From: Phoronis australis
Lineage: Eukaryota; Animalia; Phoronida
DNA: 64,000 nucleotides
NCBI GenBank assembly: GCA_002633005.1
Contig: NMRA01000117.1
Location: forward strand, 600,343-664,342
Direction of reading: 5' to 3'
The translations under genes and the position numbers were made by a program. Positions 8,025-60,100 of the stretch are shown piece by piece (the first letter of the stretch is position 1; every line of letters begins with the position of its first letter). The notes below the pieces were generated by a model. The model worked only from the letters and a program-made list of their open reading frames with translations, did no database searches and was not told where the DNA came from.

Positions 8025-8382
8025 GTCGGCCAAGCATCGACCATCCGGATGTTAAAAAAGCCCACCACAGATGGCAGCAGCGTACAACAAACACGAACAC
8101 CAAAGTTCAGTAACGGGACCTCCCTAAAAATGCGATATTACGTGAGATAATGTAGTGTATTTTAAATGAAAACACGTGATTTTGGCTAGATTTTGGGGAG
8201 GTTTTAGCCTTACTGAACTCTGCCCAGCTTCGTCTCCAAGCCTCAATCTAGCGCTAGTCTCCTCCACAGATCCTCTGTATTGGAACGTACAACGTACAAA
8301 AAGTCATGTGACATGCTGCAAAGTTCAAGGTCATTGATGTTTGAGTCTGGTGCCGACTGACGACGGCTATAATTCTACCAAT
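8025..8382. promoter_or_regulatory. Bidirectional promoter region between FKBP11 and the MAO-like gene
   Basis: Start codons diverge 358 bp apart. CACGTG at 8173, palindrome GTCATGTGAC at 8303, TACGTG at 8139. Confidence 0.6.
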
Positions 8383-36900: not shown

Positions 36901-39900
36901 CAAGAACCAGTTAGATGCCAGTGGAAGACACAGGCAGCAGTGTCCTTTTCCGCCATTATATAATTGTGTTCTCATCTCGATTGAGATGAAATAAGGTCTT
37001 GGTGATGTCCTTGGCAGTTGCTGTATTGTCAGGACTGGGTGTCTAAGAGTAGAGATTCCATTCGGTGTCCATACTGCTTCAAAGTCGGGGACATGCTGTT
37101 TTGGACTGATTTGTATTATCGTGTCATAATTAATGAATTGAATGATATTTTCAGAGCAACGTGGAAAACCTGTCCCCGCAAATCATCCGTCAAGTGGCTA
37201 AGGAATTGGCTGAGTTATCATCGGATCCACCTGAGGGCATTAAAGTTTTCTTCAATGAGACTGACATAACAGACATCCAGGCTGTGATAGAAGGTCCAGG
37301 TATGACAGCCATTGTTGATAATTTACCCCTATTACAAATTACATGTCTTAACTTTAAGCTATTTGAACAAGTACAGTTCTCGTAGGTATACTCTTCATTT
37401 GTAAATGGTTCAGTATAAAGTTTGTTGTTTTACCAAAAAGCTGATCTTGAAACAAAAACACACTTATGCAAACTTGAGCATAATGTTTTGAATGTTGTTT
37501 TACCGAACGTAATTGCAATGCTGTGTGTGAGATTTCTTTTAATTCCAACTGACTATTTTCTAAGTATCGCTTTTAACTGGGAATGTAAGTCGAACTATTT
37601 CTGTGATTGTCTTCTTTATCCTTTTATTTTGTTTGTATTGACAAATCTACACCTTTTTCTGAAGTTTGCCTGCACTTTGCTCAGTTCTTCTATTGAACCA
37701 ACTTTCTCTTGTAGCCGGGACGCCATACGCCGGAGGTGTCTTCAAAATGAAATTAGTGCTTGGCAAAAATTTTCCTACTGAGCCACCAAAGGGGTTCTTC
37801 ATTACTAAAATATTCCACCCAAATGTATCTGAGAATGGCGAGATCTGTGTCAACACCCTCAAGAAAGACTGGAAGGCCCAGCTAGGACTAAAGCACATAT
37901 TACTGGTAATTGCACTGCTGTCACCATCGGGAATTCATCCAGAATTTCAAAAATAGGGCATCCAGAATGAGATTCCCAGTTTTCTCAGGGAATTTGTCAC
38001 TAATGACACGACGTGACTGCTGTTGTGACCCCAATTGAAATTATTTTCATAGTGTGGTATGTTACCGGGGAATTGTGGGTTTTCAATGAAATCCATCATC
38101 TTACATCATATCTTGACTAACTTTTTACTCTGAACTGACCAGAGCGCTCTCAGAACTGCTTTTAACAAGTTGAATGAGACACCATTGCTTACTGTACATG
38201 GGCCTCCAAATACTGGACAGGGGGTCCAGATGTTGAAAAGGGTGTCCATTTGGATGCCCACTAGATGAAGGCCTGGTCGCAGTAATCATGATGAATGAAC
38301 TGGCTTGGAAAACATATGATGTATTTGCATGTGTTTCGCGCTAGTCCGTCCTTCCTCAATGCTACACAGAGACAAGGATGTCATGCCTATACCAGTGTAC
38401 TGTATTCTCTGTAGTTGAAGAATGTAGCTGTCTAACCGAATGCCATGCATGGCGGAATGTCTAGATGAATGTGTTATTCTTGATAATGGGCATTACATTG
38501 TGTCATCAGTCTTCGATTAGAATTGAGGAAGGGTAGTCTAGCTTGAAATGTTTGCAGATATTTTTATGCTGACCAAGATTTGTCTCTGTACTTGTGTCTG
38601 CAACTTAATGGTCAGTAAATTTATTAATTATCATCTTTGGTGTATTGTATGACAATACATTGCGCATATTATTCATCTTGCAAAAATCCTTATCCATTTT
38701 CCTTTTGTGTCATCCAGTCAGTGTTCCTATTCCTTGTGTAGATGAGCTTGCAGTGATTATGCAGAAGTGGTTAAGTTGATTTCACCCATTTGGTACGAGC
38801 ATTAGTGTTACTGGGGTATATACATTTATGTAGCAGTTTACCCGAGTGCATCATTGGTCTTCATTGTTCAACATGTAATGGTTTCTCTCAAGGTACAGTA
38901 ATTCTCCACTTATTTTGCACAAAATTATTGTCGAAATTGCCATGTTTCCATTTTTCAAATGTTGATTACTTTTCTGCAAGTTATGAAAAATTTACCAAAT
39001 TATTTTATGACATCTACACAGCAGAATCCATGCTAGCATGTTTAGAAATTTGATAAAATAGAATTCCATTTGTCGGCCACATTGTGTTTGTTAAATAAGT
39101 GAAGAATTGTCATGATAGAAGTCTTAGCCTGTTCATAAAGTTTTCTGTACGTAATCATGAGCTACCCGTTTGTTTGTAGACCGTCAAGTGCCTTCTCATT
39201 GTGCCTAACCCCGAGTCTGCACTGAATGAGGAAGCTGGCAAATTATTACTGGAGCAATATGACGACTACCGTGACAGGGCGGAGATGTTCACTGAAATTC
39301 ACGCTAAGCCTGCGAGGTTAGTAACACTGGTCTAGTGCTTTGAAACAGCCATTATTAAACACAATAGCAATGCAGATATTGATGTGCACCCAGAATGTGT
39401 AACACAAACAGGGAAGAAACATAATTTTTAACATTCCCATGAGAGGTGGCAGATAAATTTATTACATTTAAGATCGCCTCTTGCGGACACAACACCAGTT
39501 CACAAAGTGGCAGCGAAATCTTCTTGTTAATAAAATATAGCAAATGATAATCACAAACATCTCCAAAGTGACTTCGAAGGTACATTATTATAAAAGCCAT
39601 AAAATAGAGGGTATAGCATTAGGATGCTATTTTAATAAAAATCATATCCACTAATTTTCACATAGATCACAAATGGATTGGCAGAAATGTGGCACCAAAA
39701 TTAGGGCTCAATGCTAAGGCATAACGTTAACTCATTATTTCCTGCTGGATTTTTATCACAACATCATTGAAGCCTTGGGAATTGTGGACAAAATTTGCCA
39801 ATTTTTCGAAAACTATTGTCATACAAGTGTAAATATGTCTGGGGTAAAAATGGTGGATATTATGGGTTTATGACAAAATTGCTGTAATTTACATACGTTT

Positions 39901-40031
39901 TGAAATTTCTTTTCAGGACATCCTGTGATGACAGGTTATCCGAGGGGCCTGTTGCAAAAAAGCATGCGGGTGATAAAAAGTTGATAGATAAAAAGAAAAA
40001 AGACAAGAAAAAGACTCTTAAGCGATTATGA
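33930..40031 (+). CDS. UBE2S: Ubiquitin-conjugating enzyme E2 S (198 aa, 5 coding exons)
   Basis: Exons 33930-33938 (ATGTCTATG|gtaag), 37155-37299, 37715-37905, 39180-39316, 39917-40031 (597 nt). [37 protein letters not shown] (active-site Cys), [12 protein letters not shown] and the basic C-terminal [11 protein letters not shown]. The first micro-exon is inferred from phase and position. Confidence 0.95.
34679..34760. mobile_element. Left end of a Tc1/mariner-superfamily (CCGTA-terminus) DNA element
   Basis: TA + ccgtattcgccgtaataactgcccatgcccttataagcgccc resembles the termini at 51325 and 62635. Right end not found. Confidence 0.45.
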
Positions 40032-40448
40032 GTCTCATTTCAGTTTTAAATTTGCAATCAATGTTCATAATAAAAGGTATGCGACAACCATTATTAAAAT
40101 AATGCATTCATCGCATTTTAGAAAGTAACCTGAATAATAACGTTGTCCATTAGAATTTTCTGTCTTTTAGTAACTGTCCTCTTTTAGTCATCCTTCTGTA
40201 GCTATCATGACTTTGATAAGAGCATGTGAAGAGAATGCAATTGTGAAAGGAAAATTGATCTTTTATCTGTCAGTTCCAGTGCTTGACTTGTTGCCCAGGG
40301 TAGGGTGAAAAGTGTAATAATATAGTAAATGTATTTATTATTAATAACGATGTGCATGTGATGAATGGCCGTCTTTGTATCATAAAAAAATAAAATTAAT
40401 ATATTGATACTTTCCATTGTTTTTGTCCCAGTCGAACACGAGAAATAA

Positions 40449-40655
40449 CAGCTCCCTCTAACACATTGCTCTGTAACTACACAGGTACATAACCATTCAC
40501 AGCTCCCTCTAACACATTGCTCTGTAACTACACAGGTACATAACCATTCACAGCTCCCTCTAACACATTGCTCTGTAACTACACAGGTACATAACCATTC
40601 ACAGCTCCCTCTAACACATTACTTTGTAACTACACAGGTACATGACCATTCACAG
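40449..40655. repeat. 51-bp minisatellite, 4 copies
   Basis: cagctccctctaacacattgctctgtaactacacaggtacataaccattca repeated. Confidence 0.95.
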
Positions 40656-40746
40656 CCTATTGGTGTAATGAGTATATTGTTCTTTTCATACAGAACCATG
40701 TAATCATTCGGACACATTGGACTAAAGCACAAACAATAACGTCTGT

Positions 40747-43700
40747 TCACAAATACTTAATCAGTTTTCGTAGTGCCTTTTTGATGGCTTTCAACATATC
40801 GCATAAAACCAATAGATACGATAACAGTCCTTGGTAACGCATTTTTTCTCTAATCACCAATTTTGGCAAGTTAGGATGAGACAATCCAGAAAAATCATAT
40901 TTGCTATCGAGCATAATCTTCAATTCATCCATTACATCCAGCACTCTCATTCCATAATGATTCACAACACTGGTCTTGGTTTCACTTTCCAATTCCCCCT
41001 TGATGTTGGTATAAATATCTTCATCTAGTTTGTCGATTCTGTTTTTGAAACGCGCGTGTAAGTTCAGAAACTGTTGTACGAGGTCAGCTTGTATCTGAGC
41101 ATTATTAGACTGTTTACACAACTCGTGTAGTTCTCTCAGCTCATCCAAGTTATTTATAGTTAGCCTGTCTGTGGGTTGAACAAGATTCAGAGTGAGCAAG
41201 AAAGATGAACACGAGGATTGGAACAACGATATGCACCGGCTCATCTCACTCATGTACTCGGTCAAATTTCCTAGTCCATGAAATAGCTTCTGCACGAAAG
41301 GATCCTGGCAGTCTGAAATAAAAACAATTCATGGTTCTCATTTATCTAACACACCGCAGTTTATTTATTTGAAACAACAGGATTGTTCCCTTTGCTACCT
41401 AGGTGCTTTACATTTGTTTTGGAGTGGCATTAATATTGCAGCAGGAGGAGTTTAAGTAAAACGTGTACAGGGAACATTCAAAATACAAACCATCCGCACA
41501 GCGAGAGCAGGAAAGCATCTCCCACTTGACTCAATTTCTAATTCTGGAATTGACAGGGATGAAACAAATAACTTTCATTCATGGACATTTCTAGATGTTA
41601 AGCATTTTCATGTGAATCAGTTGATTATCCTACCACACAACAAAGGTAATTTGATGCCATGACAGTAACATCTATAAAAAAACGCTGGAAATTCTCAATT
41701 AGCAATGCACCAAGAGCGCAGAGTGCACTCGATCCATCAACTACTCTATCGCCACCCACCAATAAAGAGTTCTATTTCATTACGTCGGCTAGTAGACAAA
41801 GGAGTACTTTGAGTCTGTCTACTGCACACTACCCAGGGCCACAGGAGGTTGAGTGTCCGCGTCCTGGTCACAGAGTCACAGGTTTAATCCCACTGGACCC
41901 CCTTGCTAGACCCTTCAGTCAGGTCTCCAGCTCCTCAGCTCACTCTTAATTTGTGTATATGACTATGGTTTCAGATATTTGGTGCAATGGGCCCGACTAC
42001 CACACGAATCAGACCACCAGCACAATTTTTAGGGCCACAGGGATATGTCCTCAAAACTTTTACAATTCTAGTTTTGAATTATGCTGTGTATATAAAATGT
42101 CAGCAACAATGACCTGGCATTCCCCAACAGCTCTTGCCTTTTACAGGTCTAACACTTATCAAAATATTAAAAGGAATTAAATCTTCTCTGTGAAGATAAT
42201 GTTCATTCATTAAGAAAAATAATGATTCTAAGGAAGCTCACTCTCAGCCATTTGGTTTGCATTATAAACTTGGCCTGCTTCACAGCTGCTTGTACTTTGT
42301 CAATAGATTTGAAAAAGAAACGCTGTTATGAAGAGGCCCATTTATCAAGAACTCTGATCAAAGGTCATATTATGCAGAGTAGTCATAACTTCACAGCATT
42401 AAAACAATGGTAACAATAAGTTGACATATCATGGAGTAAAATCGGTGATTTTGAAGTGTTTGAACTTTGAAACTCAGGTTAAGGTAATTTTTACCCAAAA
42501 AATATAGTAAAAATAGCTGTGTTAGAATTGGGTTCTCTTGCAACCATTGAAGCATGGTTTTAGTAACTATATGAACCGTAGTAGATAATTGCTGCAAGTT
42601 GTGATGCCGGACAAAAGACTGTGAGAACACTCAAAATGGAGTAGACTAAGACCTGGATTTAGCCTAAGTTTAGGAACCATTGCTGTGTGGACTTGAAACG
42701 AAAAATACTTTTTTGTAATGAACTTAACTGAGTTTGAATAAAGGTACTTCTACAAGGCCCACCTTCTTGTTTAACATTTGGTTCAATAACGCTGTCACCA
42801 CAAGGTAAAGTTACATCACCCCCGGTGTCACTATGTTTGCCTGGGTCTCCAACCTTGGCAAATTCTGCCAATTCTTGCCGACATTCATCAAAGTTCTCTC
42901 TGTTGATATCAACAGTCAGTGATACTGCTTCTGCAGGGAACTGCTGTTTTATCTCTGGCATGAAAAGAGCGCTGGTCAGAATGATTTTCAGCTGCCCACT
43001 ATCGTATAGTGCCTGGAGATGTTCCATGTATGACAGGGTCAGCGGCGCAAGAACAATCACAACACTCCCCCTTCTGACGTCTGTGCAGACGATGCCGCGT
43101 AACTCCTTCAAATTGTTAAGAATATTCTTTGCCTCTTCGCCTCGTTGAATCATGGCATCCATGATTTTCGGTGCCATGTCAAGGAACACTTTCTCACCAT
43201 GAGAAGGGGACATGTTCACCTGCACATTGCAGTGGGCTTGAATTTCACCTGGAGTGACAAAATAATTATGCTTATAGTGAAACCCGATAAAATATAACAA
43301 AATAAAGAACTGAATGAATACAAAACAGAGATAGTAAATCAGATCTTCATCGGGACAATGTTAAACGATTAACATTAATCTTAACTTACAATAGAGCTTA
43401 AATTACGTTAAACATCATGTCCAAATTATCGACTCTTACGGTACTCAATTAAAAATACAGATCCAGCAAGTTTGACCTTATTTCTACATACCTGCCAAGC
43501 ATTATCAACACAAGGGTTGTGATTATCACAGAAACTGTCCCAATATCTTTCACACCTAACTTGTAAGTCCGTTTCACAACTAAGGTGATCAGCTGCCATG
43601 TTGGATACAAATTGGCAATCCTAATCAATTCTTGCTAAGAACAGTGCAGAAGTTTGCAAAGGACAATTAAAGATACAAGATATAACCAAACAGCATGCAG

Positions 43701-46700
43701 AGCATTAAGAAACTTACCTTTATGTCTGTATCTCATTGGCCTCAGTTTTGGTTTAGGTGGCACTATGGTTCTTTTTCTATTTCTTGTTTTAAGTGGGTTT
43801 TCATAGTTTTTCTCTTCTTCAAATAAAGCTGTAAAATAAATATTAATTGTTTGAACATACAACACAACATCAAACTGTATTATTACAAATCATGAAATCA
43901 TTGTAACAAAATCCAAATGAGAGGAGAGAACTAGGTACATTATTTCTTGCCAGTCACCCACATTTTTACTTTATTTTTTTAATCCAGAACCCATAATTTT
44001 TTTACAATGGAATGCGACCACAGATAATTTCCTACAGAAAATGCCTTGCCAATAAATTACTGATCAGAAATTTTGCAAATTAAGGAGACTGGTCTTTCCA
44101 ACCGAAACTTCAGGTTTAGATGCACAATTCCATTAATTTTTTCATGTAATGCAATTTTGCAATGTAGTCTCAGCTATGCACAGATTAACAATATAGAATA
44201 ACCTTGTTGAAATTCTATGGCTGGCGGGTTTGAAATCATTCAAACCTAACTTAAAGCCAAACTTCAAGGGAATTTTGTTATTTTAGGTCTATTGGTTAAC
44301 GAGATAGTCCTAGTAAAGCATTAGCAAAAATAAAAAAACGCGAGTTGATCACTCAAATGTAGGCCCATGAAATAATAGGTGAAGCTGTTTTTTTCGTGCC
44401 ATATTGCATCACCGCAAGATCCCAGCACAAACAACAAAAGGTTGAAAACAGTTGTATTGAATAGGGGTCAGAATAAAACACCATTGCATGTGGGTGTTAT
44501 TCGCAGCTGTTTGAATTTAAAGGTGATTCTAGCGGTGACAAAAACAAAAGCAAGCCAACAATTTGTAACATTTGTCAATTTATGACAGTGATGGGCTCAG
44601 AGCAATGCTCTTAACATACTGTAGGAATCAAATTTACAGGTGTAACCATTCAAGGTGTGCTTTAAGCCGCAATCTAAGAATTTTTTGTGACAGCGGGACT
44701 TAGTGCGAAATACACCCAACCAATGAGGAAGACAATCAACCTCAAACTATACTTACTGAAAGCTACTTCTTTTTTAGGAATGGAACATGTGAAATTTCCC
44801 ATCCGGTTTCTCTGTTTGTATTTCATCATATTGTTAGAGTTTATTTTGAACTTTTCAATGGTTTCTGAAACAAAATATCCAATATAAAACAATGCAAAAG
44901 TTAAACACTTTAATCAATTCACCTCAACGACTCGTATTAGTTAATTGGTAAAAAAACCTAAATTGGAGTTTTTGAACTTACATACTGTTGATGAAAATTA
45001 GAGACTCCCATAACAATCTAAATAATTTATTAAATTTCTTTCCTTTTATTAACAACAATTAATTCTCAGTTAAATTTGCCACCTGAGGTTTCAGTACATG
45101 TGGAATTAAAAAAATCAAACTGTTTTTGTTGGCATTCTCAAATAAAGGGAGAGAATTTTTTTCTGTAAACAAGGATCCCTCCAGTACTGTGCAGAACAGT
45201 TTAGAGTATACATGCCACTTGTTTCACTTATCAGCACATCTTCCGAAAATACAGCAAACAATACTGTAGTAATTTTTTCACTTGACCCCTTCTCATTAGT
45301 CTTGTGAAAAACCGGCAAAGCTGAACTGACAGGCTTGTCATTTTATGTATCAAAAGCAAGGCTGGCAATTGGCTGATTCTGAGGTCAAATGGTAGATGGA
45401 GTCACCATTTGGCATGTTGGCACTTAACTTCCATGGTTTTTACAAGGGTGGAGCCTGATTCTGTGTAAAATAAAGAATAAACAAAAAAGTCTCAGACAAA
45501 ATGAACTCACCACAAGATCAGAGCCCAAGATCCAATTATTCTGATCTCAGACTTGACTCAGACTCATAACTTAGCCAGTCACGTCAAATTATTCGAGAGC
45601 AAACTTAAAAGTTTACTCGAAGCCTGCCATGTAATTTATCAATTTTCGAATCCAGCTTCGAATACAGAAATGAGACCACCGGGCCTAGACTACAAACAGC
45701 TAATGTTGTTACCCAAAGCTTTCTTGATGTTCATCTTAGTCAACACCTCAGTCAGCTTGCTCTTGCTGGCCCGACCCTTATTGAGTCTTGCCCACTTTTC
45801 AAGCACTGTTGTGGCATACTTTGACGGTCGGTCAAATGGTATCACATGAACATCACTGATGTCTTCATCTGTCAGACCTAGCTCATAAGCCAGCTCCTTC
45901 CATCGGCTGTGTATATGGGGTGCAACATAGCGAAACAGTGACGACACACCTGTTTTATTAAGCAAAGCACAAATCTAAGTGAGACACATATCCAAATGTA
46001 GGACACAACAGAAATCAATAATAACTATGTGGTATTAAATTATTTTTGTTTTACGCTTCAAATAATAATTATTAGCAACTTTTAGTGACTAAGAGCATAG
46101 TTAGTACATCATTTCACATATATAACTAAACACTTGGAATGAGCTGCAATTATCATAATTAATATGTACTTGGTCAATACCAAGTACCCATTGTTTCCTA
46201 TCCGTAATGAACATGAACATGAACATAACATATAACAAGAGTAAGAGTAACATTGACATGTGTCCAAATGGCAGACACAACACTGGTGAAGTTCAAATTG
46301 AGTCATGCTCATCATAATAGGAACAGGTCTTGCAATGACCAGTGACAAAGAGGAATTTTTTCCAGGTGATGTATCGTTGCACAAACACATAGGCTTGTGG
46401 GACAGAAATATTGTTTGCGTTATAACACTTTATTGAAATAAACGATTTTGCATAAAATCAAAATGATGACAAAAAGAGATGAAAAAAGAGGAAAATGGAA
46501 ATCGAATAAGAGGAAATTTAAATCAAAAAGAGGCAATTCTCTTAAAAGATGAAAATTCCAATCCCTGTAGAAATGGAATGATGATTCTTCAAGGGATAGG
46601 CAGATAGAGACTGGGTAAATACGATAAGTGAACACTCGTAACATTGCCCTAGGCGGATACAAAAAATTATCAAAATGGCCACAAGGTACGCAGAACATGC

Positions 46701-49700
46701 CAAAAACGTACAAGTGGTGTTTTCTTCTTATACAAATACATCGTCAAACTTAACAAGTTCCATCAAAGCATTCGGTAGTTATAGACACAGATGCAAAAGG
46801 TAAATTGACAAGAGAGGGCATGGTAATTCTCATAAAGATTTATCGAGGACTTGGCAAATATAAAAGCAAATGCAAAAAATAAACTTGCCACCACATGACA
46901 TAACAATAGAAAAATTTGTCTGAAAGAAGTTTAGGAGACGCAGGTGTTGACAGCATGCAGCTGGACGTCAAGACTCATAATAATAATAATGCGTATTGAA
47001 GTGCATAAAACGCACAACAATTGCAAACTACAAAGAAGCATGAAGTCGACTTACTTGGAAGAGGAACCAGCTCTGCTTTAGAAAATGTCTTAAAACCATT
47101 TTCTTGTTTCACTGAAAGAAAAAGAACCAAACCATTACTCGTTAGTCATTGTGGCAGCAAACAATCTTTTACGAACATGAAACAATTACCAAAATACAAC
47201 TAACTTCCCACGAACAGAACCTGAAATATGAAATATAACCTGGACCAACTGGGCAGTTTAGACCACAGACCTCTGAACTGTATTTGCAGCACCCCTACAC
47301 AGACATCACAAGTCACATGACCTCCACGCTGCTACAGTGAGTAATACCTTTGTTTGCCTGAGTAAACCCAGAGTTGACTCTATCATTTGGTGTTCGCATA
47401 AACTGTGCTTTGGCTTCGGACCTAACTGATGAATTATGGGACATCTCCAATACATATTCTTCATCGCTCCCTTCTTCTTCCAGGTCTTCATAGACGTCAT
47501 CTTCAACAGCATTCTACAGATCATGAAATTCTTTAAACTTGAGCACTTGGTGAAAATCAAACAAGTAAATAATCTTAACAATGATAGGAAGACAGGAAGA
47601 ATACAACTAAGTTACAAGATTTTCATCATGTATGCATCATGGTCAAGTTTTCCACTGAGACCAGTCACCACAATTTGTGTGACCATCAGCCTAACTCGAC
47701 ATAACAGAAAGGAAATAACCTGGGAAGCCCACTTGTCCAAATTCAATGGACAAGAGGAATAGTCTTCACTGGAATACAGCTTGCCCAAGACCTAGCACTG
47801 CAGCCAGATCAAAATCCTATTGCCACACAATACACGTTTACTTAGAGTTAATCAACTGTTTTACCACACCGGCACTTGCGTAACGTTTTGCTGCCCTATA
47901 AGGTGAGCAACTACATGGTAAAGATCAGAGTTATAAGAGGAGATCCTTGCACGGATGTAATATGTTGTGTTTCTAATAGTTGTACAGTAAATAATACATT
48001 TCACCATCCACTGGCTGACAACTTCTATTAATATCCAGGTGAAATGCAGTCAAAATACTGTGACGAAAGTGGCACACCACGGAATGCAAAACTGTAGCAT
48101 GCCATGTATATTAGGCAGTGAGAATTGAGGAGTACTCGGGTTAGCACAAGTCAACAAGGGGGCTAATTTGCTATGGAGTACTTGTGTTATCTCGCATAGA
48201 ATATATACATTGAAAATCACAGTGAGATTTTGTTAAATTTCAAACTGCACAACATTAAATCGGATCTTTGCGGCTTGACCCAAGTGTATTCAATGTCAAT
48301 ACAGAGGCACAGGTGTACATTTCAACACTTCACAAGCCCTGAGTGAACTATTCTTGGACATCCTGCATTATATTTCCCAGTGAAACAAATGTCTTGAAAC
48401 CCAACCAACAGACTAATTAAAATTCATCAAGAGAGGTAATATAAGATACTTCAGTGTCAAAGCATGTCTTACTAACCAAGTACTGTTCTTCTGACAAGTT
48501 AACTTGTTCAACATCACTATCATCAGCCGATTCACTACTTGTGTCCGACTCCGATGACTCATCATCATCACTTTCCTCAGATGCTGTTTCCAAATCATTC
48601 ACCGACAGTTTCCTGGAAACTGGTTTACGAGCTGGGAACACATTTGGTAGACTGTTCGATTGTCTCAACCTTGCTCTGGGCCCTACGGAGAAATTCACAA
48701 GTTTGTAGAAACTTGCCAAGTAGAATAAATAAGTACAAAACGCTGTATCCACTATACAGTTGAGAACGAATATCGGACTAATGAGAAATATAAAAATAAT
48801 CGTTCAGCCTCAAACTGAGTACAACTAGGGTCTAGGTTTAACTTGATGTATCCAAAAACGAAACTAATATATGATATTTTCAGTTATACGAGCTCAAGAT
48901 AACAGACTGTTTTTCTAGGCCAGAGTTCATTCACCACGATTCATGCAGACAAGTGTCTAGCTAGTCCAAGTTGGTACCTGACCCTTAGATTTGAACTGCA
49001 ATGTTGAGTAAAAATTACAATTATGAGTTCTTACTCCTTAATGCTAAGGTTATCAAGAGAAAATTAAAATCATACAGCCATCAACCCAAACGGTATTTGA
49101 GCACAGAATAATAGACATTTATCTTGAGTTCCCACAAAAGTTGAACGGAAAATGGGTCAAAGGATTTAAATTTTGAGATATAACCATCTTAGTTGGTAGC
49201 TGTGAAACCTGCCAACAATATCAGCGATCTCAAAGGAGCCATTCGAATCAATCAGCCAAGACGTACCAAATGTGCCATGGCACACTCTCAGTGCTGACTT
49301 ATTTCAACTAGACGGCTGTGAATACCTTCTCATTGCAGACTACTCCACACGCTATCCTGTACTCCACAAGCTGGCAACCAACACGTCAAGCCATACCATC
49401 ACCAAACTAATGATCGAAACCCTTGGAATGTTTGGAATTCCAAATTCCATCATCACAGACAATGGCCCCCAGTTTATAGGCAAACCATTTAAAGAGCTCA
49501 TGGCCAGCTCATGGCCAGATATGGGATCAGCCACGTTACTTCCTCCCCACACCATCCACAGTCCCATGGCTTCATTGACAGGATGGTGGATGTCGTGAAA
49601 GCGCTGTTAAAAAATCACCAAACGACATAGACAATAACCTTCTTCAGTACCAAACAACTCCCCAAGGTGCAAACTCCCTATCACCTGCTGAACTACTTTT

Positions 49701-52700
49701 TGGATGCAAACTTGGCGGGAGCCTCCCCAAGTACACCAACCCGAACAGCCCAAGACCTCCAGCGGCTACCATTGGTGGACGAGAACTTCCAGAACTGTCA
49801 ACAAACCAACTCATCTACTATCAAGACGTAGCCAAGAAGGATTGGATCCCTGGCATCGTAACTGGAACTGGCCCAGAGCCAAGATCATATTCTATCCAAT
49901 GTAGTCCAACAGGTCGTTTCTTGCGAAGAAATCGTTGTCATCTAAGACCATGCCACAACATAGTCAGAGTAGATAACCCCACAACCAAGAACATTGAGCC
50001 TTGTCCAACCCTACCCGATGGAGCTCAATGTCCACCAACCACACCAAATCATCCCGTGTATACAGACAAACCAGATATCAACAAAAAGGCTTAGCCTCAG
50101 TCTCAGCCTCACACTCCAAGCAAAAGTAACCCAACTATCCAACCGGGAGTCTACGTGACGCGATCTGGTAGAGCCAGTCGACCACCTACTAAACTGAACT
50201 GTTAGATTTACATATTTAGCTATTTAGTACTTTTCTTCCAACTACATCATACAATAAGGCACAATAATCCTTGTATGATTGTAGAGGCAGTGATAGTCCA
50301 CCCACTCAGTGTCCAGGCAGTTAGCTGTTTGTAGATGGTGCCTCATTATATAACCATTAGTTAGTCATGACATCATTTTAATCGATCAACAAAGGTATCT
50401 GTTGCTGTACACTATTTCATCCAGTGGACCATTTTCACCTGAAATCCATCCGGCGACTATGGTCAGAGTTATACAGAAAGGGGGATGTCATAATATGGCA
50501 CTATCCTCTGTGGACTCTACCAGTGTCTATGGACTATAATGTTATATACCCTATGTTCAAACCATGTTTCCTGTACTAGAGAGCTCCTTCTCTCTCTTCT
50601 TCCGGTCTGAGCCATATTGGAATAAACCACATGGATACTGTTTCTAGTTAATCTATGTTTGTCTAATGTCTACTACAACCATCCATATAACACCTCCCCC
50701 CAGTCCTGAAGTAAAACCTCGGTGGCCTCAAGCTCAATGCAGCTGTTTTCCCAAATGAGTACAACATCACATACGCACGAGGGTCAAACAAACTGTGCTG
50801 GCTCAAAAACCAGTATCTTGACATGGAGACAAAAATACGCTCAGAAAACTGTTTGAAATGTACAAAGCATACCATCGTGTTCACTCAGTCAAAAAAGGTG
50901 CACCATTGGCTTATACAAGTTACAAACAACAGCTACTATAGAGTAATATTTTAGTTCCTGGCCTAACTGCATCAATAGCGTGTGTGTAATTTTACAGTTG
51001 CAGCTCTTCTCTTATTTTGCATGAATATTATCACGATATGGGAAAAACGTTACAGACCTTGCTACACCAAGACAAAGCTACGCGAGGTGCTTTTGCCTCT
51101 TACGAAATCAGAGGAGCTCTGTTGACAGCAACCTAATTAGCACCAACCAAGCAGCTAGTCAAGCTTATTCATAAAGACATGCCCGACATAATTGAGCGCA
51201 TCAATCTTTGCTAAAAAGTAATGTTCCAGTAATTATTTCCAACAGATTAGGTTTATTGTATTGGAAACACAAAAGGTATGGCAATGCACTGGTGATTGGG
51301 GGTGAGTAGGGTAAATACAACTTACCGTAATCGTTCGGGTTAACGCTCTGGGCGGTTAAATTGGCGAATCCAAAAAATCGGGGGAGGGCGGTTAACTGAG
51401 CATGGGCGTTAACCCGAACGATTACGGTATATGTCATGATTGTCAAAACTGCCATTTTATTTTTTTTTCAGAAGCTGATTACTTGAAATATTGGATATGT
51501 TAGAGTATGATCTCATATCCGAGTGAGTGCATGTGTAGGAGTAGTTCAGAGAATTAACCATTATGTAATACACCCCAAACATGAGGAATTGTAGTAAACA
51601 TGTTTGTTCAGTATATCCTGTTATGATTCATGTATGTCACTATATAAGTGTATGATCGCATGGAATGTAACAGACTCAGTAGTATCAGTAGAAGAGTATG
51701 TAATAAAACTATTATCCTCCTTCAGACTAGTATTATCCTTGGACCGCGTTCTCGCACTGTGTCGCGCATTCAACGTTCCTAACCGAAAAGAATGCCTTTC
51801 ACTGCTAGCACATCAACAGGTTATGGGCCCAGCACGGCCAGCAGTTCCAGCACTAGCGTGAGTAGAGGTTCAGGAAGACTGAGTCGGCTATGTTTTGATG
51901 GAGATGAAAGACGGTATGAACTGTGGGAAATTAAGTTTCTCGGACATTTGAAATCGCTAGATCTGAAAGCGACAATTGAATCCGACGCGGAAACCGTCGA
52001 TGATGAGAAGAATGAAGAAGCATTCTGTGAATTAGTTCAATACTTGGACGACAGAAGTTTGAACTTAATAATTCGAGATGCNTCAGCCTCACACTCCAAG
52101 CAAAAGTAACCCAACTATCCAACCGGGAGTCTACGTGACGCGATCTGGTAGAGCCAGTCGACCACCTACTAAACTGGACTGTTAGATTTACATATTCAGC
52201 CATTTAGTACTTTTCTTCCAACTACATCATACAATAAGGCAGAATAATCCTTGTATGATTGTAGAGGCAGTGATAGTCCACCCACTCAGTGTCCAGGCAG
52301 TTAGGTGTTTGTAGATGGTGCCTCATTATATAACCATTAGTTAGTCATGACATCATTTTAATCGATCAACAAAGGTATCTGTTGCTGTACACTATTTCAT
52401 CCAGTGGACTATTTTCACCTGAAATCCATCCGCCGACTATGGTCAAAGTTTTACAGGAAGGGGGATGTCATAATATTGCACTATCCTCTGTGGACTCTAT
52501 CAGTGTCTATGGACTATAATGTTATATACTCTATGTTCAAACCATGTTTCCTGTACTAGAGAGCTCCTTCTCTCTCTTCTTCCGGTCTGAGCTATATTGG
52601 AATAAACCACATGGATACTGTTCGTAGTTAATCTATGTTTATCTAATGTCTACTACAACCATCCATAATATAACACCTCCCCCCCGTCCTGAAGTAAAAC

Positions 52701-53953
52701 CTCGGTGGCCTCAAACTCAATGCAGCTGTTTTCCCAAATGTGTACAACACCACACACGCACGAGGGTCAAACAAACTGTGCTGGCTCAAAAACCAGTAGC
52801 TTGACATGGAGACAAAAATACGCTCAGAAAACTGTTTGAAATGTACAAAGCATACCATCGTGTTCACTCAGTCAAGAAAACTGCACCATTGGCTTATATA
52901 AGTTACAAACAACAGCTGCTATAGAGTAATATTTTAGTTCCTGGCCTAACTGCATCAATAGCGTGTAATTTTACAGTTGCAGCTCTTCACTTATTTTGCA
53001 CGAATATTATCATGATACGGGAAAAACGTTACAGGCCTTGCTACACCAAGACAAAGCTAGGCGAGGTGTTTTTGCCTCTTACGAAATCAGAGGAGCTCTG
53101 TTGATAGCAACCTAATTAGCACCAACCAAGCAGCTAGGCAAGCTTATTCATAAAGACATGCCCGACATAATTGAGCGCATCTATCTTTGCTAAAAAGTAA
53201 TGTTCCAGTAATTATTTCCAACAGATTAGGTTTATTGTATTGGAAACACAAAAGGTATGGCAATGCACTGGTGATCGGGGTGAGTAGGGTAAATACAACT
53301 TATATGTCATGATTGCCCTAGGACTATTACTCCCAGTGATTGCCAAAATTGCCATTTTTATTTTTTTTCAGAAGCTGATTACTTGAAATATTAGATACTT
53401 CACCAAATGTTATTATACACCATCTACAATACAAACTAAGTTAATAATGACCAAAATTATGTTAATACTTCAGTTACAAACTTAACTTGCCCGCTATGTT
53501 TTGTGCTGAATTGGTGAAGACTTAGTACATAGTTCCTCTCCTTTTATTTAACTTGCAATTATCTACTGGGAAGGAACAATGCATCATTCATGCTGTATTC
53601 CTGCATAATGTCATTTCAAACTTACGAATGGATTTGTTGGCATCATCTCTCTCCAGCTTCTTGACTAAATAGCTCTGACCAGAACCTTCTTTGATTGCCT
53701 TTAACAGGCAGTAAAACGCTGCATCACTTCTGGATTCCAGAATGTTCAGCAGATATGAATTCCTGGTCCTCCTGGTCGCTCTGCTCTCAAGCACTTCATC
53801 GTATATGGTAGGGCTAATGATTCCGTCCTGCAAGAGATAGTTACACACAACCTCTGGGTCGATGTCATCCGTCAACAACACCCTGTTCTGCCGCAACACT
53901 TCTCGATGGTGACTGCTCATAGCTTTGTCCTTGAGTTTTTCCAAATTATCCAT
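40747..53953 (-). CDS. Uncharacterised death-fold adaptor: CARD - acidic linker - Death domain - TRADD-N-like domain - helical C-terminal domain (~754 aa, 9 exons)
   Basis: Exons 53626-53953, 48477-48682, 47348-47513, 47055-47111, 45713-45949, 44757-44864, 43718-43828, 42763-43248, 40747-41312 join in frame with GT-AG sites (2265 nt). The exon-8 donor is uncertain. CARD: HREVLRQNRVLLTDDIDPEVVCNYLLQDGII...LLNILESRSDAAFYCL. Death domain: VAPHIHSRWKELAYELGLTDEDI...VLEKW...KLTEVL. TRADD-N-like: DVRRGSVVIVL...LYDSGQL...LTVDINRENFDEC. Confidence 0.78.
46324..46567. mobile_element. MITE family B copy
   Basis: caggtcttgcaatgacc...aaaattccaatccctg, homologous to 20807-21047. Confidence 0.8.
49195..50677 (+). 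mobile_element. Decayed Ty3/Gypsy LTR retrotransposon 3' part (integrase, PPT, 3' LTR)
   Basis: CETCQQYQ, PWHTLSADLFQLDGCEYLLIADY...FGIPNSIITDNGPQF, SPAELLFG and terminal YVTRSGRASRPP, with frameshifts. Polypurine tract agaaaggggga at 50475-50485. LTR TGTCA...TACA at 50486-50677 contains AATAAA. Confidence 0.88.
51325..51427. mobile_element. 103-bp Tc1/mariner-type MITE with TA target-site duplication
   Basis: TA-ccgtaatcgttcgggttaacgc...gcgttaacccgaacgattacgg-TA has a perfect 22-bp TIR. The empty site (single TA) is seen in the duplicate copy at 53301. Confidence 0.92.
51498..52081 (+). mobile_element. Ty1/Copia LTR retrotransposon 5' end (LTR, PBS, start of gag), truncated by the N
   Basis: LTR TGTTAG...CAACA at 51498-51818. 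PBS GGTTATGGGCCCAGCACG is complementary to the internal region of initiator tRNA-Met. Gag-like ORF RLCFDGDERRYELWEIKFLGHL...KNEEAFCELVQYLDDRSLNLIIRD. Confidence 0.9.
52083..52657 (+). mobile_element. Second copy of the Gypsy 3' end (PPT and LTR 52466-52657)
   Basis: Near-identical to 50103-50677. Confidence 0.85.
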
Positions 53954-56900
53954 GTTGATTCAAACAACCACTGCACGCTGCAAAATGACAACTATTGATC
54001 ACAGAGTATCTACATGGACAATCAACAGTCAACAAAAATGCCTCAGCATAAACAGGCTAGTTCAAAACTGGGTGCCCCTATACCGTTTTGAAAAATCACA
54101 CAACATATTTGCAACTTGTTCATAAAACATTTGGTAGTATGACTAACACGTTAAGCTGATGTTTGTGAGAATCCATGTGGAACAGCAGAGTCAAATTTTT
54201 CAACTGAAACAGGAAATCAATTCATTTTACAATAAAACCACTGCAGTACAAAAGTATCCAGACAAAATATCACTTCCCATGATCATGACAGCTAATTCTG
54301 TTAACAGCAGCAATGATTGGTAATCGTGGGAACAAAATTCTAATTAAGTCACTCAGTCATCTTACTAACTTTCCTGTTAACTCCATTTCATTCTCCGTCA
54401 TTAGAGAAAGCAACTCCGACAATGAAATTGACTTCCACTCAGACCCTCTAGATTTGTTGCAACTCATACAATATCAGTGACATCATTCTCTGAGCCCTGG
54501 GAACCAAGTTAGTTATTTTGTCTAATTACTTTTGGCTTGTACTGTTCGTTCAGCTTGACATACTTTCAGTAAATTTCCCACATTTATATACTGCAGGCTA
54601 CACCTTCATACAGTACTTTGCAACTGTATCTAAATATGGTACACAGGTCTGAGGTTGCATGTAACTCAAGATAAACAAAACAAAAATTGTCCCGTCTCAG
54701 AAAATAAGACTTGAACATAATAAGTAGGCTCATCATCACAATCATTTAGACAACAACCATCATTACCTGCAAGTCACCAACTGTAGCTTTAACCTTTCAT
54801 TTAACTACTTTCAATCATATGAGTCAGCATTTCAATCAGGTCAAGGATTAAGGTAAAAGAACCGTTAAACCTTGCATATGTGCTAGTCTATGTCACCGCA
54901 CTACTGCAAATCCCAGGCAATAAATCACCTCCATCCTCTTAAAAGCCAGACACTACTGCACAAAAATGCATGATCAGAGCTTTTTCTATAAGCGTGCAAA
55001 ACAAAAAAAAATGATTAATCAACTAAAATTCAACCCAAAAGAGCTTTTTACAAGAGATTGATGGTAGTTACGTACTTCTATTGATTATCGATCATAGTCA
55101 TAGGTCAATTGTCAATACACTTATCCAGGAGCAAATTGTGATTTGTTCAACATGGATCAATGACTCATAATAACGAAAAACAAAGAACTACAGTTGTCCA
55201 CAATTAGTTAGTCAATAGAAATAACTAGGCTGGTCAATATCTTGTAGGACAGCAGAGCAGCACAATTTGCAGCAAACCAAAACTAAGTCAAGATTGCCTT
55301 AGCAGTGGTTGAGCCAATATTCACCAGGAGGCGCTGAATGTAAAATGAATCTTCGTGACAGTGCGAACAAAAAGCTGTTCACAAGCATCACTGCTGTCAA
55401 TATATACGCATCCCAAGCTAACACCAAAGTGCATTCATGAAGAGCAAATAGGTTTGTGGTTTCCCTGAGCAGCATTTTCTCATTCAGTAAATTGTTGTGA
55501 AATATAGCACATACTTGAAGAAGAAAATATGGGTTGATACGATCCAAGAGAAGAGAATGTCTGAAATCAAAGTTGCTGCTAAAAGTAAACAAGCAATATT
55601 GAACCCCAACAATATTGTTTACAAAGAACTTTTTGTAGAATAAAACTTAAATTTTAAAACAAACATCACCCTACCATTGTTTTAATTCAAATGGATTTTT
55701 ACAAGCTCAAACTTTGAAAAAGCACCTTACCCAAACCCAAAAAAATACCAAAATTGTACAAAACATTTTATTTCAAAAGAATGATGCATAAAGAAACAAT
55801 ATTCAATACTCCTGACTCATTTCATGCCATGCCTACATCACAAACTTAAAACATCTAGCAGTCAGAAACTCAACAAATTGCAAACACTGAAACGAGTATC
55901 AAGACAATTTATAACTGAGTTCTGCTAATAGTAAAATAGGAACAAAACAATTCTACCCTTCAAAAATCTGGTCAACAGAACTCTCCTCGTACTGACAATA
56001 AAATGCACAAGAAGCTGTGCCATTGCTAAACCAGAAACTATTTGCTGAAACACAGCCAAAACATTCAACTCTGGAGGCCTTTTTTCCACCCATATTTTAA
56101 CAAACGTAGCTGACATACATTGACTGACATACATTGCCTGACATACATTGCCATCATTCTTGAATGGCAGTTATACTTCTAGGAATTGTTCAAATTGTAC
56201 AGCTCTTCAGAATTCTAGACACAGTTTGCCCATTTATAAAACTTTCTTAAACTTGCTCCATCGAGTAAACCCTCCGAGCATTCCCACCGACAGACCAAAG
56301 CACGACTCGAACACAGATCTTTACGCGTCGTCACTCTCTACAATACAAGTAAAGCAACAGCTAACATATGTTCTGCTCTTAAAGGGGAAAGCAACCGCTT
56401 TAGATAGTACTTTTAATAAATAGATTCCCTTTGTTATCCTGGTTCATTAATGTTCCCGTGATGTGTATTTACTATGCACAGAACATTAGAAAGTGAAGAA
56501 TCTTGGTTGTGCATCTACCTCCACTGAGCAAACACAGACTATGTTCAAAGCTAGTAGGACACCGTAACTGGCCAAAAGAAGAGAATGTAGAAGCAAGACC
56601 CTGGCCTTTTGCTACACTGTTTACATAAGATATGTATAACCAGGCACCTGCATTTTTACTAAAGGCACCATCAAAAACGGTTGCATTTCCTTTAAAATTA
56701 TGTCTCTCCAACCACTTTTCCTTTGCAAGTTGTCAATTGACCTTATTTTTACTGATAGCAAAATTCAATGTATATGCATCCCAGAGGTGTGTATATGACG
56801 TCTAAGTCCTTTTCAATACCAGCCCTTACTGCAGGAAACAATAAACTTCAAACCTAAGTCTAAATAACTTAGTATCCAAACAGACAAGCAAGTCAAAACC

Positions 56901-57147
56901 AGTGCACTCTAGTCAACATTGTTATACAAGGGACGGTAAGACACTGCTCGTTTGTCACTTGAAAAACAAGACAACCTGAGAGGAAGGGAATTTCTCATAG
57001 CTTAAGGACATGATTACGAATTAACAAGAATGAAATCTACAATTCTTCAATATCATGTAAAATAGCATCTTTAAGATATAGGAAATATCCTCTCAAAACG
57101 TTGAATTTATTGCGCTAGTCAAAAGTCTTTAAATACACTCCTCCCTT

Positions 57148-60100
57148 TCAGGAAGAGCTTGAACTCGACTTGGATCTACGGCCGCGTTTCTTGGCAGGGG
57201 ATGCTGACCTTGATTTTGACCTCTTGCGTGGAGGTGGAGAACGACTCCTTCGCCTTGGAGGGGAACGTCGTGCAGGTGACCTAAAATTGGAATGCAATAA
57301 ACTGTATCACTGGCATGACAATACAAGAATACAAACCTGTCCTACATGGTTCCCTCTCCGAATCCATTTTCCACCGATTTCCAGAATATAATTTTCATTT
57401 TTCATGAATTTTCCAGGTCATCCAAGAATTTTCAAGGATATAATTTAATCCATGCATATTTCCCACAAACAAACTGTCATACTGCAAATTTTTCTTGACT
57501 TTGCCAAGCATACAAATTATTTTAAATCATTTTCAGGTGTTCACGAGTGAAAAATACATCCAAGACAAAAACAGGACAAAGTCCAAGATCACTTCAAAGA
57601 ATAATCAAATTCTCAATTTGTCATACGAAAATTAACAGTATGAGTAAAACTGCCATTTAAAGCTTCATTACACCCTGTTCAGACAGCTAAAAAAATTGAA
57701 CAAGGCCTTTTGCTCGCATAAAACTGATCTTCCTCACTGTGATAGGATTCCATTTCCAAAACCAACTCAAGCCACAGACAATGCGTACATGTTTCATTTT
57801 CAAATTCACAATTTTATGGTTTGCCAACTCAAATAAACTCCTGAGGTGCTTCCTTGAGTCACTGGTGGTTTCAATGTTCTTGTTGGTAACATAAATAGAA
57901 TCCTTCAACTGTCACTTTCAAATGATCATGTTACTTCTTGTATGATTTTCTTGAGCTTGAATCATAACTTAAACAAAAGCCCAACGAATTTTGATTTAAT
58001 GGAAAATCATCAAAATTACTTTGAAAACTATGCTATAAAGCAACTCCTCAACAATCTCAAGACATCAACGCCATCATCAATCAAAATGGCGTACTTCAAA
58101 GGGTGATAGAAAAACACATAACAAATGGTTCAACATGCTGTCAGTAGCAGTGCAAACCATTACAGCGCTTACCTTCGCCTGTACCGAGGGGGTGACTGTC
58201 TGCCCCACCTTGGAGGCGGGCCTCGTCGTGGGGGACTTCTGCGTGGTGGAGGGCGAGTGGCTCTGGGGGCCAGTACAGGGGCTGCTGTGATCTCTTGACC
58301 ATCTATTTGCCCTGAAAACGTAAAGAAAGCACAGGTGACTCAAGTGTACCTTGGGACGATTTTCCACGCACATACAAATGACACGAACATACTTTCTACA
58401 GAAAGCATTGTTCTCTTCGTAACTGAAATTCTGAAGCTGCAATATCACGTATTACATTTTGAGAGAACAAATTTTTGTTGAGTAACATGTACCTGATTCT
58501 CTAACAGGTAACTGATGTTTGGGAAAGGACAATAGGTTACTGTCTGTCAATAGCGTCACTACCATCAGTACCAGAAAACTCCACTAATGTTCTGTTGGAA
58601 CTAAGACCCGGGCCCCTTTCAAGAAAACTGATTTAGCTAATACAAATCTTAAATTTACTTAAATTTTTTGATAAAACTTCAAATCCGCTCCAAGACAGTG
58701 ATCTAAGTTTGACTAAATTTTGTTTTAAGCTTGACTAACTCACCGCATGCGAAAGTTTCAAAGTTTGGAACTTGAGACAAATATAAGAATCCCAAGCAAA
58801 AAAATGAACTTAAGATTCTTGCAAAGGGCCGTGATTTGATGATAGTCCAACAATAAAAAACAATTGATATACAACTCTTTAGCATTGACAGAGCACAAAA
58901 GCGATTTCTGTTCAACCCAATTTTAAATTCTGGGCAGACGAAAAAACTTATTGCTTTCATTCATGGGCATTTAGTGTTGTTGGACATGGTTGATTGGTCG
59001 ACATAGTGAAAGCAAAGAATTAATGAATGCTGTGAAATACCACTATTTATCTCCATCCAAGTTACTAGTGAGCTAGAAATGGTTTTGCATGCTTACATAC
59101 AAAATATTCCCAACACCACCTAGCAACACAACAAATTTCACTGTGAAGCCGCTAAATCAGAAAATGAGTTATTAGAGAAAGCTTTCAGAATCTGAATAAA
59201 CAGGCACGAGTAGCTGTTATATGGTTAAGACATCTTAAACACGGATTATCAGGGATTTATGAGTTATTTTGCCTGAATATTATTCTTTAAATAAATTGTT
59301 TTGAGGCAGAAGCAACCTCAGAAACACCAACATGTCAGCATGTTTCCTAGCAATCCTGTCCAAACAATCTAACCACAGCAGTCTAACCCACCTCCATCCA
59401 TGTGTTTCACAGCCTTCTCTGCTTCCTCTGGCTTCTCGTATTCAACGTAAGCAAACCCTCGCGTGAACTGTGAGTGTAGCCGATCTATAGGCATGTCTAC
59501 ACTCTTCACTGTTCCGTAAACGGAGAATATTTCTGTGATATGATCTTTGTTGACATTTCTTGTCAGACGCCCAATGTGCACTTTGGTGGGTTTCGGGGAA
59601 GGAGACCTCTTCTTGGGTTTGTCTGCTTTCGACTTGGACCTGGCAAGAGCAGCAATTGCAAACATTAAGAACAAGTTACGAAGTTTGCCAATCTAACATC
59701 TACTATTTAAGTCACTGAATCCCTGGTTTTCAACGTTTTTGAGGAGTGTACCTTGAATCATATCAGGAATATGACGTTGTATACTATTTGGCTAACTATC
59801 AAATTTTTATTGATTTGAATTGCTTAGAAATGAAATCAGGCAAAATTTACAATAATGCTATAACAAAGTTTTGACTTTTTTCGTAAATAATGTATTTCCA
59901 ATGAATAAAATAGTTTTTTTTTTACGAAAGTAGGCAGTCTCATGACTATGGCTTTTCTTGGGGCACCAATTTTTTGGCAATTATTGTTACAAAACGCAAG
60001 AACACCCGATTTTGGGTATTTTGTAACAGGATTACGTCATAATTCATTTGGATGTATCACAAAAAATCTGCTAAATTGGAATTCTAACCGTCTCATTTGT

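What the first reader, a model, noticed from the sequence alone, without database searches (positions are those of the whole stretch)
40747..53953. Unnamed multidomain death-fold protein: CARD + Death domain + TRADD-N-like + unknown helical domain in one chain
Seen: nine exons with canonical splice sites join in one frame (~754 aa), though the ORF track shows only disconnected pieces. Established: CARD+DD is the RAIDD/CRADD architecture (caspase-2 recruitment), and TRADD-N+DD is the TRADD architecture (TRAF recruitment). Inference: this protein combines both in the order CARD-DD-TRADD-N and adds a ~190-aa C-terminal domain. It could be a single-chain scaffold coupling caspase activation, death-domain receptors and TRAF/NF-kB-type output in invertebrate immunity or cell death. 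I do not recognise a named gene with this architecture. Domain calls are by eye, and TRADD-N-like is the least certain.
Basis: partly seen in the sequence, partly recalled or inferred. Interest (0 to 1): 0.85.

Follow-up and report, generated by a model that had tools for sequence, protein, structure and literature searches.

The report
Conserved four-domain invertebrate death-fold adaptor
A transcribed, spliced invertebrate gene joins two cell-death docking domains (CARD and death domain) to a TRADD-type domain and, likely through a last splice not yet seen in RNA, to a predicted helical bundle of no known family; moss animals keep the same line-up, the first three domains in this order were already catalogued in sponge, coral and amphioxus, and the protein likely works as an immune or cell-death adaptor.

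Summary
The gene is real. RNA reads show 7 of 8 splice junctions, all GT-AG and in frame. The last junction, to the helical exon, was not listed. Its best donor gives 754 aa, with the same domain spacing as bryozoan relatives. CARD and death domain pass Pfam cut-offs. Exon 8 has no Pfam hit of its own, but profile, motif and Atlas evidence place it among TRADD-like N domains, nearer DEDD than TRADD. Watersipora and Bugula proteins carry the same four parts in the same order, though their CARD is only half length as annotated. Exon 9 is predicted (pLDDT 57) as a four-helix bundle of no assignable family. The order CARD+Death+TRADD-N is already listed 11 times in the supplement of Kaur et al. 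2021, so the architecture class is known. The same paper says TRAF is not a general partner, so the TRAF/NF-kB reading is unsupported. What is new is a conserved version ending in an undescribed bundle. Likely a non-enzymatic adaptor; function untested.

The parts
53626..53953 (-). Exon 1 coding part, aa 1-109: start codon and whole CARD
   Evidence: PF00619 E 2.8e-12; best PDB sequence hit RAIDD CARD 3crd, E 4e-4; junction in 8 reads
48683..53625 (-). Intron 1, 4943 nt, holding retrotransposon remnants and a 1.2-kb duplication
48477..48682 (-). Exon 2, aa 110-178: acidic, serine-rich linker
   Evidence: both junctions in RNA; no Pfam hit; poorly conserved
47348..47513 (-). Exon 3, aa 179-233: acidic linker; reads of X1 and X2 carry a 3-nt in-frame insertion at 47470
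47055..47111 (-). Exon 4, aa 234-252: linker before the death domain
45713..45949 (-). Exon 5, aa 253-331: death domain, the best conserved part
   Evidence: PF00531 E 6.2e-8; 42% identical to P0001; best PDB hits ankyrin death domains
44757..44864 (-). Exon 6, aa 332-367: basic linker
   Evidence: aa 332-404 are 27% K+R
43718..43828 (-). Exon 7, aa 368-404: basic linker
42763..43248 (-). Exon 8, aa 405-566: TRADD-like N domain (about aa 405-535, Gly-Ser motif at Ser466) and a short acidic linker; 3' boundary inferred
   Evidence: donor ranking
40747..41312 (-). Exon 9 coding part, aa 567-754 and stop: predicted four-helix bundle of no known family; join to exon 8 inferred
   Evidence: transcribed on the same strand; 26% identical over 155 aa to the end of P0001, E 5e-12 pairwise; model; fold searches
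40448..40656 (.). 51-bp tandem repeat, 4.1 copies, in the likely 3' untranslated region
   Evidence: read depth

Best explanation
This is a transcribed, spliced gene whose CARD, death domain and TRADD-like domain lie in one reading frame, likely followed by a predicted four-helix bundle, and its product likely works as a non-enzymatic cell-death or immune adaptor. Shown: seven junctions, the three domain assignments, and the same four parts in the same order in two bryozoan genera. From established knowledge of the death-fold superfamily: CARDs and death domains bind domains of their own kind. Inferred: the death domain, the most conserved part, docks the protein onto an upstream death-domain protein; the CARD, on a long acidic tether, can recruit a CARD caspase; the TRADD-like domain with its conserved Ser acts as the protein-binding switch between the constant death-fold part and the tail, as Kaur et al. 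propose for this class; the tail bundle has mostly hydrophobic conserved positions and no transmembrane stretch, so it likely binds a partner or sets location rather than catalysing anything. It belongs to the marine-invertebrate death-fold + TRADD-N class, but as a version conserved over a long evolutionary distance.
For: Junctions and frame. Pfam CARD and Death above cut-off. phmmer of exon 8 over 1.84 billion representatives gave 7 hits at E<=0.001; 3 of the 7 pass the PF20694 TRADD-like_N cut-off and a fourth scores below it. Profile comparison of exon 8 and bryozoan segments with segments of those four proteins: probability 99.0, E 2e-18; controls with the death domain and the tail gave E 0.33 and 0.78; a profile of the four scores the bryozoan proteins 54-57 bits against at most 8.1 for 200 shuffles of exon 8. 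Atlas on P0001 268-410: top feature hits TRADD-like_N at 0.94, structure TM 0.75 named, DED+TRADD-like clusters TM 0.72-0.73, classical TRADD 0.79 by features only. Gly-Ser invariant in the alignment, matching the uS motif. Collinear relatives P0001 (Watersipora, XP_067932908.1), P0008 and P0010 (Bugula): 27-30% identity over 438-536 aa, E about 1e-52. Tail vs relatives 50.8, 35.0 and 52.8 bits against shuffled maxima of 20-23 (60 shuffles each). Switch model and interior position of TRADD-N.
Against: Junction 8 is not listed in RNA, depth falls to 0-0.4 at the start of exon 9, one run has depth 1 beyond the inferred donor, and X3 covers exon 9 but not exons 7-8. Exon 8 itself has no PF20694 hit at E<=10, and the four Pfam-scored proteins were found with exon 8, so its own score against their profile is partly circular. 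All three bryozoan proteins begin in mid-CARD, which weakens caspase recruitment as the conserved job. No partner, location or induction was tested. The tail model is low confidence (pLDDT 57, 4 sequences). Expression is low (depth about 2-6 in about 1.7 billion letters per run).
Confidence: 0.55

Rival explanations
1. One reading: a TRADD+RAIDD hybrid that recruits a TRAF through the TRADD-N domain and drives NF-kB-type output while activating caspase-2.
For: The Ser that contacts TRAF2 in human TRADD is kept. The CARD's best PDB sequence hit is RAIDD. Molluscs, annelids and brachiopods lack APAF-1 and have CARD caspases thought to use CRADD (passages).
Against: The Ser is conserved across the superfamily, including bacteria without MATH domains, and the paper says MATH is not a universal partner. 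The domain is nearer DEDD-type than TRADD-type. The domain order is the reverse of TRADD. The RAIDD hit is weak (E 4e-4) and the death domain is nearest ankyrin.
Confidence: 0.13
2. DEDD-like scaffold: it brings a caspase to substrates at the cytoskeleton or in the nucleus, with the basic linker as an import signal and the tail as a targeting bundle.
For: DEDD-type TRADD-like domain. Basic linker before it. DEDD is described as a scaffold that directs caspase-3 to keratin filaments (abstract and passages). The best natural fold matches of the tail are vinculin tail (Z 14.3, rmsd 1.9, 126 aligned) and the p130Cas FAT-like domain (Z 13.5, rmsd 2.4, 128 aligned).
Against: Designed bundles score equally (Z 14.2, 13.9), so the match shows only a common arrangement. 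There is no DED. The basic clusters lie at different places in the relatives.
Confidence: 0.12
3. Brake rather than activator: a catalytically empty decoy that caps death-domain or CARD assemblies.
For: No enzyme domain. In Amphimedon the same three domains are followed by a caspase; here a bundle stands in that place. The CARD appears halved in bryozoans.
Against: The CARD here is whole. Empty adaptors such as RAIDD and TRADD activate (established knowledge). No functional data.
Confidence: 0.12
4. The tail is an effector, held inactive and released by a caspase cut in the acidic linker after the TRADD-like domain.
For: The position after TRADD-N is the variable effector slot in this class. 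All three linkers examined hold 4-6 Asp sites. The tail is a compact 187-residue unit on its own exon.
Against: No Asp site is conserved in sequence. Acidic linkers hold such sites by chance. No hydrophobic or charge feature is shared. Neither MLKL nor a natural cytokine appears among the 50 rows shown in any fold search, which is inconclusive.
Confidence: 0.08
5. In this species the gene is split or mostly ends after exon 8: a 600-aa read-through product ending at the stop at 42659, with exon 9 transcribed apart. This concerns the gene model and can combine with the readings above.
For: Junction 8 unlisted (chance 0.055 or 0.012); depth dips on both sides; about one read beyond the donor in X2; X3 covers exon 9 without exons 7-8.
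Against: Intact donor and acceptor, frame kept, spacing equal to three single-chain relatives. No AATAAA or ATTAAA on the minus strand between 42760 and 41890. Counts are small and only about a fifth of each run was read.
Confidence: 0.13

Closest known systems
Marine-invertebrate death-fold + TRADD-N proteins of Kaur et al. 2021 (PMC8195603), e.g. XP_019633519.1 CARD+Death+TRADDN-DEDD2 (Branchiostoma belcheri, 505 aa), XP_020622138.1 (Orbicella, + CARD), XP_019849060.1 (Amphimedon, NCOA6 clade, + caspase)
   Same: Same order CARD, death domain, TRADD-N; TRADD-N between a constant death-fold part and a tail; uS motif.
   Different: Those are mostly lineage-specific and variable. This one is collinear with bryozoan proteins at under 30% identity and ends in a bundle of no known family. 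Orthology to the listed proteins was not tested: their sequences were not on hand.
'Death+TRADDN-DEDD2+Coiled-coil' entries of the same supplement (Lingula, Ciona, Saccoglossus, Crassostrea, Mizuhopecten; 11 of 20 matching rows end there; 397-771 aa)
   Same: Death domain, DEDD2-clade TRADD-N, then a helical region; similar lengths in Saccoglossus (771) and Ciona (712).
   Different: No CARD listed. Whether their 'coiled coil' is this bundle is untested; none came up in the exon-8 search.
Uncharacterised bryozoan proteins XP_067932908.1 (Watersipora subatra) and KAF6028334.1 (Bugula neritina)
   Same: All four parts in the same order and spacing; likely orthologues.
   Different: They begin in mid-CARD as annotated and have a shorter CARD-DD linker; unnamed and unstudied in the searches run.
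RAIDD/CRADD
   Same: N-terminal CARD followed by a death domain; best PDB hit of the CARD.
   Different: RAIDD has only these two domains (recalled); here a long acidic linker and two more domains follow; the death domain is nearest ankyrin by sequence.
TRADD and DEDD/DEDD2
   Same: TRADD-N superfamily domain coupled to a death fold; as in DEDD2 the death fold comes first.
   Different: TRADD has the reverse order and is confined to vertebrates; DEDD2 has a DED and no tail bundle.

Membership tests
CARD (PF00619) | Profile score above the curated cut-off over the whole domain | tested here: met
   46.9 bits vs 23.9, profile 1-84 of 85
Death domain (PF00531) | Profile score above the curated cut-off | tested here: met
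   33.1 bits vs 22.6
TRADD-N superfamily (Kaur et al. 2021) | Sequence-profile homology to members | tested here: met
   Atlas on the bryozoan relative
TRADD-N superfamily (Kaur et al. 2021) | uS motif in the turn between strands 2 and 3 | tested here: met
   Gly-Ser invariant in 8 of 8 rows, between two predicted strands 52-56 and 61-65 (low-confidence model); definition
TRADD-N superfamily (Kaur et al. 2021) | RRM-like alpha+beta sandwich | tested here: inconclusive
   Own model pLDDT 36, fold search uninformative; the Atlas model of P0001 matches TRADD-like_N models at TM 0.75, both sides predicted
Pfam TRADD-like_N (PF20694), strict | Direct score above the cut-off of 23.7 | tested here: not met
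   No hit for exon 8 at E<=10; Bugula relatives 13.4-13.5 bits. A divergent member by indirect tests
TRADD (vertebrate) | TRADD-N first, death domain last | tested here: not met
   Order is reversed
TRADD (vertebrate) | Binds a TRAF MATH domain | not testable with these tools
   No TRAF of this organism on hand
DEDD/DEDD2 | N-terminal death effector domain | tested here: not met
   Pfam gives CARD and Death, no DED
DEDD2 clade of TRADD-N | Groups with DEDD2-clade domains in a tree | not tested
   No tree built; Atlas rows favour DED+TRADD-like clusters and list no NCOA6 family
RAIDD/CRADD | CARD then death domain | tested here: met
RAIDD/CRADD | Two-domain protein ending after the death domain (recalled) | tested here: not met
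   Spliced reads run on from exon 5 to exons 6, 7 and 8
RAIDD/CRADD | Binds caspase-2 and PIDD | not testable with these tools
   No partner sequences on hand
Tail domain: FAT/vinculin, PA28/PA26, MLKL/HeLo or helical cytokine | Sequence or fold match that stands above unrelated bundles | tested here: inconclusive
   No Foldseek match at E<=0.001; natural and designed bundles tie at Z 11-14; no Pfam, NCBIfam or PDB sequence hit

The most novel reading that the evidence does not exclude
An old, conserved gene of sessile marine invertebrates in which a CARD-death domain-TRADD-N sensor head controls a new class of four-helix effector, released or exposed on signalling; it would be a second CARD adaptor for caspase activation in animals that lack APAF-1, and the 'Death+TRADD-N+coiled-coil' genes of brachiopods, bivalves, hemichordates and tunicates would be its orthologues.
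Probability: 0.12. Interest if true: 0.75.

Novelty: new variant of a known kind. Interest (0 to 1): 0.38.

Why it matters
Invertebrate TRADD-N proteins are known from sequence surveys, and their architectures usually differ even between close species. A version whose four parts stay collinear at under 30% identity is a good candidate for a fixed pathway component and a tractable test of the TRADD-N switch model. It also defines a 187-residue helical domain that no library searched here names. The limits: the architecture class is in print, the last join is inferred, and no function is shown.

Tried and rejected
Run search: no indexed RNA holder was listed; three raw-read runs and one contig set came by species label; the contig set X4 covered no coding exon. 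Word-based searches with exon 8 and exon 9 for longer proteins found nothing among 246 and 681 candidates, although P0001 exists, so these blanks are weak. The search with P0001 130-622 scored only 7999 candidates and gave 2 proteins. No whole genome is held, so copy number outside the window is unknown; within the window there is no second copy. Single-sequence model of exon 8: pLDDT 36, best Z 2.8, meaningless. PDB sequence searches with exon 8 and its profile did not reach TRADD. Tail: Atlas gave no feature hit and TM under 0.5; viral library nothing at E<=0.001; metagenome scan 311 pattern matches, none confirmed. A helical-cytokine reading, suggested by the helix lengths, was dropped because the model matches up-down bundles and no natural cytokine is among the rows shown; low confidence leaves it open. 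PA26/PA28 cover most of the model (Z 10-12, rmsd 4.0-4.7, 154-166 aligned; Foldseek E 0.3) but there is no sequence support. Complex prediction of exon 8 with exon 9: no answer, score 0.00, alignments not used; no evidence either way. Fragment alignments A2 and A3 misplaced exons and were not used. Other donors for exon 8 fit the relatives' spacing less well or match the consensus less well. Paper searches for a described gene found only the survey paper; subscription journals are not covered, and its supplement file was cut when stored.
Full report
Observation. The region holds one minus-strand gene. All are GT..AG and keep one frame. Reads per joint, summed over X1-X3, are 8, 7, 8, 11, 9, 8 and 6; X3 gives only one of them. 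So CARD, death domain and the exon-8 domain are linked by a chain of spliced reads; no single read spans them all. An in-frame stop three codons upstream fixes the ATG at 53953 as the start.

The eighth joint was not listed, neither (7 rows hidden) nor in a second lay on 40200-44200 where nothing was hidden. Depth falls to 0.43, 0 and 0 in the bin that holds the start of exon 9. X2 has depth 1 in 42612-42745, beyond the inferred donor. X3 covers exon 9 but not exons 7-8. Under a Poisson model the chance of staying below the listing bar is 0.055 or 0.012, depending on whether the bar is per run or pooled. This is real but mild tension. Against it stand intact splice sites and homology: the donor at 42763 matches the consensus best (7 of 9; 18 GT sites examined), gives 754 aa with the acceptor at 41312, and leaves 78 residues between two anchors, against 74, 79 and 79 in three single-chain relatives. 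I put the join at about 0.85.

Domains. CARD and death domain pass Pfam's cut-offs. By sequence the CARD is nearest RAIDD among solved structures (E 4e-4) and the death domain nearest ankyrin-3 (E 1e-4); neither is strong enough for orthology. Exon 8 has no TRADD-like Pfam or PDB hit of its own, and its single-sequence model is unusable apart from a helix-strand pattern that fits. A full phmmer search gave 7 relatives; 3 pass the PF20694 cut-off and one scores below it. Profile-profile comparison gives probability 99.0 with negative controls, and a profile of the Pfam-scored proteins scores the bryozoan proteins 54-57 bits against at most 8.1 for shuffles. These proteins were found with exon 8, so its own score of 68 is partly circular; the bryozoan scores and the Atlas result are less so. 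On residues 268-410 of P0001 the Atlas returns TRADD-like_N by features (0.94) and by structure (TM 0.75), with DED-bearing clusters at TM 0.72-0.73 and classical TRADD lower. The Gly-Ser motif is invariant and matches the uS motif defined in PMC8195603.

Relatives. The top hit P0001 is XP_067932908.1 of the bryozoan Watersipora subatra. It carries part of a CARD, a death domain, the TRADD-like domain and a tail homologous to exon 9, in that order. Bugula neritina has the same (P0008, P0010). The window protein is 27-30% identical to them over 438-536 aa, whereas they are about 51% identical to each other. The tail similarity is well above shuffles. All three bryozoan proteins start at the same place in mid-CARD; this may be true shortening or shared mis-annotation. 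No relative outside bryozoans with this tail was found, but the searches were limited. I did not determine the window's organism; an earlier unchecked note calls it a marine invertebrate.

The tail. The model from a four-sequence alignment (pLDDT 57, pTM 0.45) has helices at 4-40, 55-65, 75-107, 114-134 and 148-186. Foldseek finds nothing at E<=0.001. VIA-align ties vinculin tail (Z 14.3), designed bundles (14.2, 13.9) and p130Cas (13.5), with PA26/PA28 at 10-12; that level is typical for helical bundles and names no family. Conserved positions are mostly hydrophobic, with two His and two short motifs in loops; there is no transmembrane stretch and no shared net charge.

What is known. Of PMC8195603 I read the abstract, sections 8, 11, 12 and 13 and searched passages, and I searched supplement file 4, which is cut in the stored copy. 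'CARD+Death+TRADDN' occurs 11 times: 8 in Amphimedon (6 followed by a caspase), 2 in Branchiostoma, 1 in Orbicella. 'Death+TRADDN-DEDD2+Coiled' occurs 20 times; 11 of these end there, in Lingula, Ciona, Saccoglossus and three bivalves. Bugula and Phoronis do not occur in the file as held. The paper says that TRADD-N usually lies between a constant and a variable part, proposes a switch role, and states that MATH is not a universal partner. Of PMC11463336 I saw passages only: no TRADD, PIDD or APAF-1 found in molluscs, annelids and brachiopods, CRADD present. Of PMC2173221 I saw the abstract and passages: DEDD as a scaffold for caspase-3. Five searches found no paper on this gene or on TRADD-N in bryozoans (listings only).

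Mechanism. The most likely reading is a non-enzymatic adaptor (0.55): the death domain docks upstream, the CARD on its acidic tether can recruit a caspase, the TRADD-like domain is the switch and the bundle binds or targets. Only the anatomy is shown; every binding step is inferred. Rivals are TRAF/NF-kB output (0.13), a DEDD-like targeting scaffold (0.12), a decoy (0.12) and a releasable effector (0.08); a split gene model (0.13) is a separate question.

Verdict. It is a new variant of a known kind: a catalogued domain order with an undescribed, conserved tail. Interest 0.38.

Noticed in passing
window 49206-50094 (+) and 51783-52081 (+), intron 1: Retrotransposon remnants: a broken integrase piece (Pfam rve E 4e-6, under the cut-off) and a gag-like open frame cut by the N (no Pfam hit; 'Copia-like' is recalled). 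PMC8195603 notes retrotransposons near DEDD2-clade TRADD-N genes, but such inserts are common in introns.
   Followed up: partly
window 50103-51324 and 52083-53302: A 1.2-kb direct duplication, 96% identical; the second copy starts right after the window's only N (52082), so it may be an assembly artefact or a pair of terminal repeats.
   Followed up: partly
P0001, P0008, P0010, first 50 residues: All three bryozoan proteins begin at the same Met in mid-CARD and keep only its second half.
   Followed up: no
P0003, P0005, P0009, P0011: These short database proteins stop aligning just after the Gly-Ser strand, which suggests an intron inside the TRADD-like domain that this gene lacks.
   Followed up: no
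window 39314-40330 (+): A convergent gene on the plus strand with a 600-nt intron (14, 12, 16 reads) ends close to or overlapping this gene's 3' end.
   Followed up: no
window 54852-60500 (-): An RRM gene (PF00076 E 2e-16; RNPS1-like, name recalled) lies just upstream on the same strand, stop near 57148. Reads at 54852-55435 occur in X1 and X2 but not X3, like this gene, and may be its 5' leader.
   Followed up: partly
window 392-1024 (-) and 8338-8667 (+): Exons of an M1 aminopeptidase and of an FAD-dependent amine-oxidase-like gene; no immune cluster is evident in the window.
   Followed up: no
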